Below are positions 530-1,314 of a DNA stretch of 64,000 bases, piece after piece (within the stretch, counting starts at the first letter, position 1; every line of letters starts with the position of its first letter). This DNA comes from Eledone cirrhosa. Lineage: Eukaryota. The stretch lies in the NCBI GenBank assembly GCA_964016885.1, contig OZ024741.1, positions 40,672,001-40,736,000 on the forward strand. The letters run 5' to 3'. Position numbers and translations under genes: made by a program. The notes under the pieces are model-generated. The model worked only from the letters and a program-made list of their open reading frames with translations. It had not been told where the DNA came from and made no database searches.

Positions 530-719
530 TTCTTGAGACTAGTAAAATGAGGTATCCTCTTGATAAGTCGGCAGACCTCGCAAGGACTCTATGTCTTTAT
601 GATATATTGTTTTTGTTTATGCCACGAAACTACGTAGTCGAGGAATTTAGGAGTAGTTTAGGTATGATACATTTTATTACTAATTATATCTAAATATTTC
701 TTCTCTCTTCATAATGTAT
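530..719 (+). repeat. 190-bp direct repeat, copy 1
   Basis: TTCTTGAGACTAGTAAAATGAGG...CTCTTCATAATGTAT, identical to 1125-1314 (offset 595, matching ORF ends 693 and 1288). Confidence 0.97.
555..644 (+). ncRNA. Type I hammerhead ribozyme, copy 1 (U3-A8 core variant); predicted cleavage after C639
   Basis: Helix I TCCTC(555-559)/GAGGA(640-644); core TTGATAA(560-566) versus consensus CUGANGA; helix II GT-C-GGCA(567-573)/TGCCAC(620-625); GAAA(626-629); helix III within palindrome ACTACGTAGT(629-638); cleavage triplet GTC(637-639). Confidence 0.8.
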
Positions 720-1124
720 TTTTAACTCTGATACTGGTTCAGTCTAGTTCAACTGAATTGGTCTGTCCCAGTCATTCATTGAGCAACATCGGTGAAGTTG
801 GCACCCTTAACTCACAGTTGGGTGCGGATGCATTCATGTATATATGTGTGTGTCCGCATGTATCTGTGTGTTTCTAATTATATTGTTAATAACTCCCTCT
901 GGTCGAGCAATCTTTGAAGTGTGGGGACAGCTGGAAGGCTTCCATTACTCATACTTCTCGCCTTCTTCACCACCTCTTCTGCGGCCTCGATATGAATACC
1001 CCCTCCGCCTCCGTGGTATTTTCTTCGGGGTTATAAGAGGCTTAGCTCTGTTTCTCGACCGTTATATCGCGTGACTATCTCCCCCTCCGCCTTTTGGGAT
1101 TCTTTCTCACGTCGTGTAGACGCG

Positions 1125-1314
1125 TTCTTGAGACTAGTAAAATGAGGTATCCTCTTGATAAGTCGGCAGACCTCGCAAGGACTCTATGTCTTTATGATAT
1201 ATTGTTTTTGTTTATGCCACGAAACTACGTAGTCGAGGAATTTAGGAGTAGTTTAGGTATGATACATTTTATTACTAATTATATCTAAATATTTCTTCTC
1301 TCTTCATAATGTAT
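1125..1314 (+). repeat. 190-bp direct repeat, copy 2
   Basis: Identical to 530-719. Confidence 0.97.
1150..1239 (+). ncRNA. Type I hammerhead ribozyme, copy 2; predicted cleavage after C1234
   Basis: Identical to 555-644: core TTGATAA at 1155-1161, GAAA at 1221-1224, GTC at 1232-1234. Confidence 0.8.

What the first reader, a model, noticed from the sequence alone, without database searches (positions are those of the whole stretch)
530..1314. Paired hammerhead ribozymes in 190-bp direct repeats: candidate retrozyme or Penelope-like element releasing a 595-nt RNA
Seen: two identical 190-bp repeats each contain every element of a type I hammerhead in the right order (helix I, core, helix II, GAAA, helix III, GUC), around a non-coding 405-bp interior, with the whole element embedded in (TA)n. 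Established: tandem hammerheads in direct repeats define retrozymes, which yield circular RNAs, and occur in the pseudo-LTRs of Penelope-like elements. Inference: a + strand transcript would self-cleave after 639 and 1234 and release a 595-nt monomer (640-1234) that could circularise and be mobilised in trans. The perfect identity of the repeats suggests recent insertion.
Basis: partly seen in the sequence, partly recalled or inferred. Interest (0 to 1): 0.92.

Follow-up and report, generated by a model that had tools for sequence, protein, structure and literature searches.

The report
Penelope-mobilised hammerhead retrozyme with rolling-circle footprint
This is one copy of a 595-base non-coding repeat that carries a predicted self-cutting hammerhead RNA and sits in TA microsatellites thousands of times across a 3-billion-base genome in the pattern left by Penelope-like retrotransposons; the kind is known, but its copies show that each insertion was likely copied repeatedly from a single unit-length RNA, probably a circle, which has been proposed but not, in the papers searched, shown.

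Summary
In detail: 530-719 and 1125-1314 are 190/190 identical, each with a type I hammerhead of the Penelope-type U3-A8 variant; the predicted cuts are after 639 and 1234. The repeats are not LTRs. The copy is 1.32 turns of a 595-bp tandem unit, 5'-truncated at 530, and the genome holds 6,056 exact ribozyme matches. Copies have two fixed 3' ends followed by (TA)n, scattered 5' ends, and frequent head-to-head arms; 28 of 31 two-armed insertions use one end of each kind, none uses the same end twice. Autonomous Neptune-type Penelope elements in the genome behave the same way (6 of 6). Both arms share one haplotype. Private variants sit in all units or in one unit. The window is a 785/785 rolled copy of one cut-to-cut monomer of a C17 array, against 3 mismatches for either colinear reading. 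Best reading: a non-autonomous Penelope-dependent retrozyme reverse-transcribed from a circular monomer by twin target-priming. Cleavage, expression and circles are untested; precise strand transfer on linear RNA is the main rival; the partner element is unidentified. The scan noted similar retrozymes on other DNA.

The parts
359..529 (.). (TA)n target microsatellite, 5' flank; the 5'-truncated end joins it directly
530..1314 (+). Whole insertion: 1.32 turns (595+190) of the family monomer, one-armed, 5'-truncated at 530, 3' end at the short priming site
556..643 (+). Hammerhead 1 (type I, U3-A8 core 560-566, helix II 567-572/621-625, GAAA 626-629, palindromic helix III 629-638); predicted cut 639|640
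   Evidence: conservation and helix I covariation
640..1234 (+). Predicted cut-to-cut monomer RNA, 595 nt; identical to one cut-to-cut monomer of the array at G000:C17:37.4648-37.4665 Mb; strongly folded (z -7.0 linear, -5.5 circular)
640..711 (+). Predicted hairpin after the cut site; it carries the two diagnostic alleles at 654 and 696 (1249 and 1291 in repeat 2), predicted to pair, which occur together exactly 3 times in the genome
711..719 (+). Short 3'-end (priming) site, unit position 190; used at 1314 by this copy; exact end of 69 of 143 arms
883..890 (+). Long 3'-end (priming) site, unit positions 354-361; end of 61 of 143 arms (62 counting one at 353); 720-890 is the equivalent of the Penelope 'tail'
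1151..1238 (+). Hammerhead 2, identical to hammerhead 1; predicted cut 1234|1235
1315..1693 (.). (TA)n target microsatellite, 3' flank, with interspersed TAC

Best explanation
The insertion is 1.32 tandem turns of a 595-bp non-coding, hammerhead-bearing repeat with about 6,000 ribozyme copies in this genome, inserted into (TA)n with the fixed 3' ends, truncated 5' ends and head-to-head arms of Penelope-like elements; it is likely a non-autonomous retrozyme whose RNA would be cut to unit length by paired ribozymes, probably ligated into a circle, and likely reverse-transcribed more than once around by a Penelope-type RT/GIY-YIG protein. Steps: (1) a copy with two tandem ribozymes is transcribed (inferred; promoter unknown); (2) the two palindromic helix III segments pair so that the ribozymes cut as a dimer after 639 and 1234 (predicted); (3) a host ligase closes the 595-nt monomer (inferred from published retrozymes); (4) a Neptune-type protein nicks both strands of a (TA)n tract and primes two cDNAs on the same RNA, one at unit position 190 and one at about 355 (end positions, their pairing and the shared haplotype are shown; the enzyme is inferred); (5) each cDNA runs on through the former cut site for a random length, up to 7.5 units (shown); (6) the two 5' ends are joined head-to-head, or one arm is lost, as here (structures shown; order of events inferred).
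For: Family size and target. Ends: of 56 insertions taken in position order on C1 0-59 Mb, 31 are two-armed, of which 28 pair a 190 end with a 355 end and none pairs like with like; the 25 one-armed split 12/12/1. Over all 98 insertions, 52 of 57 two-armed are heterotypic and 1 is 190/190. The same long-plus-short pairing appears in 6 of 6 same-family head-to-head autonomous Penelope insertions (L045, L073, L075, L076, L080, L082; read), which also end in (TA)n and carry U3-A8 hammerheads with palindromic helix III; L064 encodes RT plus a C-terminal GIY-YIG. One template per insertion: opposite arms differ at 4 of 571 informative cells (40 insertions) against a mean of 23% (minimum 14%) in 2,000 shuffles. 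Locus-private variants are in all covering units (34) or in one unit (118); the 2 partial cases lie in a locally duplicated insertion. Source and daughter: the window's two hairpin alleles occur together only in its two repeats and in one middle unit of a C17 array; the window matches that array's cut-to-cut monomer at 785 of 785 positions, against 3 mismatches for each colinear reading. Seamless junction: 0 indels near the cut site in 241 crossings; 2 of 143 5' ends lie near it, 3.1 expected. Ribozyme under constraint: an older subfamily found through its interior (85% identity) keeps 32 of 32 core, helix II and helix III positions against 71 of 95 neighbouring positions, with a U-A to C-G change in helix I in 10 of 16 copies with an intact core. 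The ribozyme fold lies within 1.1 kcal/mol of the minimum; the palindrome dimer is -12.9 kcal/mol. The circle-template model was proposed in PMC4209133 and PMC7229834.
Against: No RNA evidence of any kind. In the only in vitro Penelope system, ribozyme cleavage was not needed for insertion, uncleaved RNA was the main substrate, and no reads ended at the cut site (PMC11167929). Minimal Penelope ribozymes cleave weakly, and 8 of 9 Xenopus retrozyme dimers did not cleave (preprint). Only one source-daughter pair was found: five further searches gave siblings but no second source; one array (C17:10.377 Mb) has a lineage variant in 2 of 3 units, and one insertion (L273) has a chimeric 5' unit, so switches between RNA molecules likely occur and could have made the C17 middle unit. 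The permitted crossover interval in the C17-window pair spans about 330 of 595 positions, so it does not pin the break to the cut site. The junction count is partly circular, because many loci were found with a pattern that ends at the cut. No autonomous element with significant similarity to the monomer was found. Covariation on 12 aligned copies was not above shuffles (84 of 500).
Confidence: 0.55

Rival explanations
1. Same element and enzyme, but the template is a linear RNA with terminal redundancy (cut once by the ribozyme or started inside a unit); the RT reaches the 5' end and transfers precisely by homology to the downstream repeat, again and again. No circle is needed.
For: It predicts the same homogenised units, seamless junction and source-daughter pattern. 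A likely switch between RNA molecules is visible in L273, and the C1:50.59 Mb array carries a patch shared with another subfamily. Two unchecked scan notes describe ribozyme-free tandem elements with Penelope-type ends.
Against: Failed transfers should pile 5' ends at the RNA end: 2 of 143 lie near the cut against 3.1 expected, though solo 80-nt copies would escape a ribozyme-based search. Both arms of the C1:193.44 Mb insertion run through 6 and 7 full units with one haplotype.
Confidence: 0.25
2. Uncleaved multimeric transcripts of tandem source arrays are the templates; the ribozyme is a passenger or acts later, and units are homogenised at DNA level (gene conversion, unequal exchange or excised DNA circles).
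For: Uncleaved RNA is the preferred substrate in vitro. The 2026 preprint proposes local tandem amplification of pLTR-derived monomers. A homogeneous source could be missing from a one-haplotype assembly.
Against: Conversion should leave partial sweeps: none among variants covered by 3 or more units outside a duplicated locus, against 13 fixed in all units. Inverted arms share private variants. The C17 array itself is not homogenised (7 single-unit variants). The 8-unit haplotype at C1:50.59 Mb has no multi-unit source among 9 exact matches. The ribozyme core is conserved across subfamilies.
Confidence: 0.15
3. An LTR-type retrozyme or TRIM-like element with true 190-bp terminal repeats, moved by an LTR-retrotransposon integrase.
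For: In this window alone two identical 190-bp repeats flank a 405-bp interior.
Against: The repeat length varies freely among copies, 5' ends are scattered, arrays reach 7.5 units per arm, and head-to-head inversions are common; the ribozyme is type I, not type III.
Confidence: 0.02

Closest known systems
Metazoan non-LTR retrozymes (Cervera and de la Pena 2020, PMC7229834; passages and the Discussion read)
   Same: Non-coding tandem unit with one type I hammerhead per unit, no LTR structure, GC below 50%, strongly folded monomer, Penelope elements in the same genome; rolling reverse transcription of a circle proposed there as the route.
   Different: Those carry canonical hammerheads in 150-450 bp units and were shown as circular RNAs. 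This has a 595-bp unit, a U3-A8 core with palindromic helix III, and no RNA data. Fixed twin 3' ends, (TA)n targeting and head-to-head arms were not seen in the passages read.
Animal retrozymes as non-autonomous Penelope derivatives (Li, Clavereau, Pollet 2026, bioRxiv 10.64898/2026.07.22.740005; parts 1-3 of 5 read; supplements closed)
   Same: Tandem units with complete hammerheads, size within their 51-972 bp range, co-occurrence with Penelope elements.
   Different: Their link rests on co-occurrence and pLTR homology, and they suggest local tandem amplification. Here no pLTR homology was found, but insertion ends and haplotypes indicate that arrays arrive ready-made from one template.
Penelope-like element pLTR hammerheads, U3-A8 and palindromic helix III variants (Cervera and de la Pena 2014, PMC4209133; parts 1-2 of 4 read)
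   Same: U3-A8 core, 4-5 bp helix I, bulged helix II, small palindromic helix III suited to dimers.
   Different: Helix II here carries a 48-nt loop, and the motif sits in a non-coding tandem unit rather than beside an ORF. Lunse et al. 2017 on dimer cleavage was seen only as a title in a reference list; the paper is not held.
EN+ Penelope-like elements, Neptune type, and non-autonomous Chlamys derivatives such as MRC1 (Craig et al. 2021, PMC8557442; passages)
   Same: 5' truncation, partial tandems forming pseudo-LTRs, an inverted 5' copy, a tail present at one end only, microsatellite targeting; non-autonomous multicopy head-to-tail members.
   Different: The tail here is about 165 bp rather than 30-40 bp; there is no ORF; and no 3'-end similarity to an autonomous family was significant.
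Poseidon of Anolis (PAc) in vitro (Frangieh et al. 2024, PMC11167929; parts 1-2 of 4 read)
   Same: Two internal RT start sites that define the tail, cleavage and extension of both target strands, AT-rich targets, predicted protein dimer.
   Different: They saw no difference in start site between strands and no need for ribozyme cleavage. Here the two arms use different sites in 52 of 57 two-armed insertions, and the units are homogenised.

Membership tests
Type I hammerhead ribozyme | Three helices around the conserved core, open end in helix I | tested here: met
   Coordinates and constrained fold within 1.1 kcal/mol of the minimum; 97.9% of cells paired in 12 copies
Type I hammerhead ribozyme | Canonical C3-G8 core | tested here: not met
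   U3-A8 variant, a published Penelope-type covariant; no Rfam hit
Type I hammerhead ribozyme | Conservation and covariation beyond neutral | tested here: met
   32 of 32 against 71 of 95 positions, and one compensatory helix I pair, in a subfamily chosen without the ribozyme; the shuffle test on A1 was inconclusive
Type I hammerhead ribozyme | Self-cleavage | not testable with these tools
   Needs in vitro transcription
Non-LTR retrozyme (2020 definition) | Non-coding tandem repeats with one type I hammerhead per unit | tested here: met
   22 of 55 sampled loci hold a tandem ribozyme pair
Non-LTR retrozyme (2020 definition) | Canonical (not Penelope-minimal) ribozyme and 150-450 bp unit | tested here: not met
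   U3-A8 core, 595-bp unit
Non-LTR retrozyme (2020 definition) | Expression as monomeric circular RNA | not testable with these tools
   No suitable RNA data could be laid
Non-LTR retrozyme (2026 preprint definition) | [quoted passage not shown] | tested here: met
   Two in the window, up to 8 per arm elsewhere; whether their descriptor accepts U3-A8 is unknown (supplements closed)
Non-autonomous Penelope-like element | Fixed 3' ends with optional tail, 5' truncation, inverted 5' copy, partial tandem | tested here: met
Non-autonomous Penelope-like element | Microsatellite target shared with autonomous EN+ elements of the genome | tested here: met
Non-autonomous Penelope-like element | 3'-end sequence similarity to an autonomous partner | tested here: inconclusive
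   No significant alignment to 4 autonomous families; only 150 of 10,596 GIY-YIG candidates were scored and 49 loci fetched
LTR retrozyme (plants) | Fixed LTRs with a type III hammerhead | tested here: not met

The most novel reading that the evidence does not exclude
This family is a genomic record of twin-primed rolling-circle retrotransposition: a ribozyme-released 595-nt RNA circle is gripped by a Penelope protein dimer that primes one target strand at unit position 190 and the other at about 355, so every insertion is a pair of concatemer arms spun off one circle. The C17-to-C2 pair would be the first traced case of a single ribozyme-bounded unit giving rise to a homogenised daughter, explaining both what hammerheads do in Penelope elements and why their insertions are tandem, inverted and tailed at one end only.
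Probability: 0.5. Interest if true: 0.75.

Novelty: new variant of a known kind. Interest (0 to 1): 0.55.

Why it matters
The element class is known, so the ribozyme pair alone is ordinary. What matters is mechanism. The role of hammerheads in Penelope elements and the origin of their tandem and inverted insertions are stated as open in PMC8557442 and PMC7761336; the circle-template idea dates from 2014; and the one in vitro study found cleavage dispensable. A young family of thousands of copies with strict two-site end pairing, one haplotype per insertion and a traceable source-daughter pair makes this directly testable, by mapping source-daughter crossovers genome-wide and by offering circular versus linear RNA to a Penelope protein. 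Four literature searches (search listings only) returned no paper whose title or abstract reports such haplotype evidence; subscription journals are largely not covered.

Tried and rejected
Rfam: no hammerhead hit. Equal arm lengths from simultaneous synthesis: rejected, Spearman -0.06 (n=27) and -0.26 (n=49). Strand-biased cytidine editing: rejected, C>T 52 against G>A 41. A C4:71.45 Mb 'master locus' suggested: rejected, it holds two separate short insertions. Second source-daughter pair: five searches, none found (analysed in 51 and 82). Partner search: no short-helix ribozyme with the same helix III (6 matches, 5 of them apparent deletion copies of the family, control 2); none of 49 GIY-YIG loci shares pLTR sequence with the monomer, and L059 merely contains a family copy; local alignments to 4 autonomous 3' regions are at shuffle level. 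Apparent chimeras with autonomous ends (L116, L214) read as adjacent insertion or flank duplication. Promoter: no Pol III B-box match; the sigma-70 scan is irrelevant here and at chance level. Expression: no RNA holder listed; no conclusion drawn. Horizontal transfer: 20 of 24 listed runs hold part of the stretch under coded names; of 4 laid, one has depth near 100,000 and in the other three the contigs that carry the element have depths of 2-25, which fits trace contamination; not used. Conservation of the core within the young family alone is weak and biased by how loci were found (0 of 39 against 30 of 556 polymorphic columns); not relied on. One search used a mis-registered structure; one search replaces it. 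Rows dropped: 10 of 97 stretches under 94.5% identity were left out; 2 of 30 loci (the query's own) were left out, and 12 of the remaining 28 lacked an exact core. One search scored 39 of 1,227 candidates and favours full-length copies, so end statistics rest on the position-ordered sample, which itself requires an intact ribozyme pattern.

Full report
Observation. The sequence is as described: 530-719 and 1125-1314 are identical at 190 of 190 bases, 595 apart, between (TA)n tracts. Each repeat holds a type I hammerhead with helix I 556-559/640-643, core 560-566, helix II 567-572/621-625, GAAA 626-629 and GUC ending at 639. The core is the U3-A8 variant and helix III lies in a perfect 10-nt palindrome. 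Both traits are described for Penelope-type ribozymes that work as dimers and cleave weakly (PMC4209133, parts 1-2 of 4). Rfam does not detect it. The ribozyme fold costs 1.1 kcal/mol over the minimum and the palindrome dimer is -12.9 kcal/mol. The cut-to-cut monomer folds far better than shuffles (z -7.0; circular z -5.5 on 40 shuffles). No long frame is present.

The family. The genome is 3.0 Gb, likely animal (inferred from its size and Neptune-type elements). The element has 101 listed matches, mostly at 98-100% identity, from 39 of 1,227 candidates, and its ribozyme pattern matches 6,056 times against 0 for the control. The true unit is 595 bp (a 591-bp subfamily and relatives at 77-89% also occur) in head-to-tail runs of up to 7.5 units per arm. 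The window copy is 1.32 units. Of 143 arms, 69 end exactly at unit position 190 and 62 at 353-361, nearly all followed by (AT)n. 5' ends are scattered. So 530 is a truncation point and the 190-bp repeat is a pseudo-LTR.

Penelope signature. In 56 insertions taken in position order from the first 100 pattern matches on C1, 31 are head-to-head pairs of arms; 28 of these join a 190 end with a 355 end and none joins like with like; the 25 one-armed copies split 12, 12 and 1 other. In all 98 insertions examined, 52 of 57 two-armed are heterotypic and one is 190/190. [quoted passage not shown] Four of these families carry U3-A8 ribozymes with a palindromic helix III, end in (TA)n, and pair a long with a short end in 6 of 6 same-family head-to-head loci (read). 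This matches the published 'tail at one end only' and the two RT start sites and two-strand extension seen in vitro (PMC11167929, parts 1-2 of 4). No autonomous family aligns significantly to the monomer. The L064 family shares a 7-base motif at its long end and a similar cut-to-short-end distance (about 75-80 against 80 nt, read by eye); this is a weak lead only.

One template per insertion. In 324 units from 87 loci, variants private to a locus are in every covering unit (34) or in one unit (118); the 2 partial cases lie in an insertion duplicated as a whole. Opposite arms differ at 4 of 571 informative cells, against 23% when arms are shuffled between insertions. The 8-unit two-armed array at C1:50.59 Mb carries four private variants throughout, and its diagnostic stretch has one other match, a sub-monomer copy of another subfamily. 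A new variant arises in one molecule or unit, so fixation across units and inverted arms needs a monomer bottleneck or DNA-level homogenisation; the lack of partial sweeps argues for the first (inference).

A source and its daughter. The window's alleles at 654 and 696 occur together exactly three times in the assembly: in both window repeats and in one middle unit of a four-unit array on C17. That array shares the window's rare background. The window matches the C17 cut-to-cut monomer at 785 of 785 positions when read round as a circle, while each colinear reading gives 3 mismatches. Limits: it is one pair; five more searches gave only siblings; the crossover is bounded only to about 330 of 595 positions; one array has a lineage variant in 2 of 3 units; and a chimeric unit in L273 shows that switches between RNAs likely happen, so the C17 unit could itself be a switch product of a source absent from this assembly.

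Circle or linear. The former cut site is seamless, with 0 indels in 241 crossings (partly circular by ascertainment), and it attracts no 5' ends (2 of 143, 3.1 expected). This disfavours untemplated end-to-end jumping and run-off, and fits a ligated circle. Precise homology-guided transfer on a redundant linear RNA would leave the same trace and cannot be excluded. The ribozyme is under constraint: an older subfamily found through its interior (85% identity) keeps 32 of 32 core, helix II and helix III positions against 71 of 95 neighbours, with a compensatory change in helix I. Against the model, ribozyme cleavage was dispensable in vitro for a Poseidon element, and 8 of 9 Xenopus dimers did not cleave.

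Verdict. It works like a non-LTR retrozyme riding on Penelope machinery (about 0.93). It meets the 2026 preprint's working definition, but not the 2020 description in ribozyme type or unit size, so it is filed as a variant. One monomer-equivalent template per insertion: about 0.85. A ligated circle as that template, with the full mechanism: 0.55. The class is known and the scan has noted similar elements on other DNA (unchecked notes; none on this sequence or genome). The added value is haplotype and end-pairing evidence on a mechanism proposed in 2014 and 2020 and not found as shown in four searches (listings only). Supplements of the 2026 preprint were closed, and those of the other papers were not opened; they may hold related families. 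Interest 0.55.

Noticed in passing
window 1771-64000: A satellite of about 100-115 bp units (a roughly 90-bp core with inverted ends plus a variable (TA)n spacer) fills the rest of the window; 472 matches to one core motif. The inverted ends and TA context recall a tandemised Tc1/mariner-type MITE (recalled, untested).
   Followed up: no
L083:7290-9710 (-), G000:C2 about 40.669-40.672 Mb, just left of the window: An uninterrupted 807-aa Penelope-like frame with RWK and DKT motifs, as described for the Hydra clade, flanked by direct repeats and (TA)n; no Pfam hit and no hammerhead found by my scan.
   Followed up: partly
L064, L065, L073, L075 (for example G000:C1:145.87 Mb): Neptune-type Penelope family (938-aa frame) with a U3-A8 minimal hammerhead, (TA)n targeting and two 3' ends; many tiny two-armed fragments of its 3' end lie near retrozyme copies.
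   Followed up: partly
L045, L080, L081; L044, L076; L082: Three more autonomous Penelope families with U3-A8 hammerheads; one has GCAA in place of GAAA; one carries a (TA)n run between its short end and a 32-bp tail.
   Followed up: partly
G000:C1:19.6187-19.6252 Mb (L105-L110): A whole two-armed insertion duplicated 2,554 bp away, probably a local segmental duplication.
   Followed up: no
L214:3232-4472 (G000:C1:175.277 Mb): An insertion flanked by an apparent duplication of about 85 bp of a neighbouring Penelope 3' end plus (AT)n, possibly an unusually long target-site duplication.
   Followed up: no
unit positions 64, 124 and 167 (window 593, 653, 696): G/A differences recur between units of single insertions at these positions, suggesting mutation hot spots; no strand bias overall.
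   Followed up: partly
window 230-358: A 129-bp unique stretch between two (TA)n tracts, not examined.
   Followed up: no
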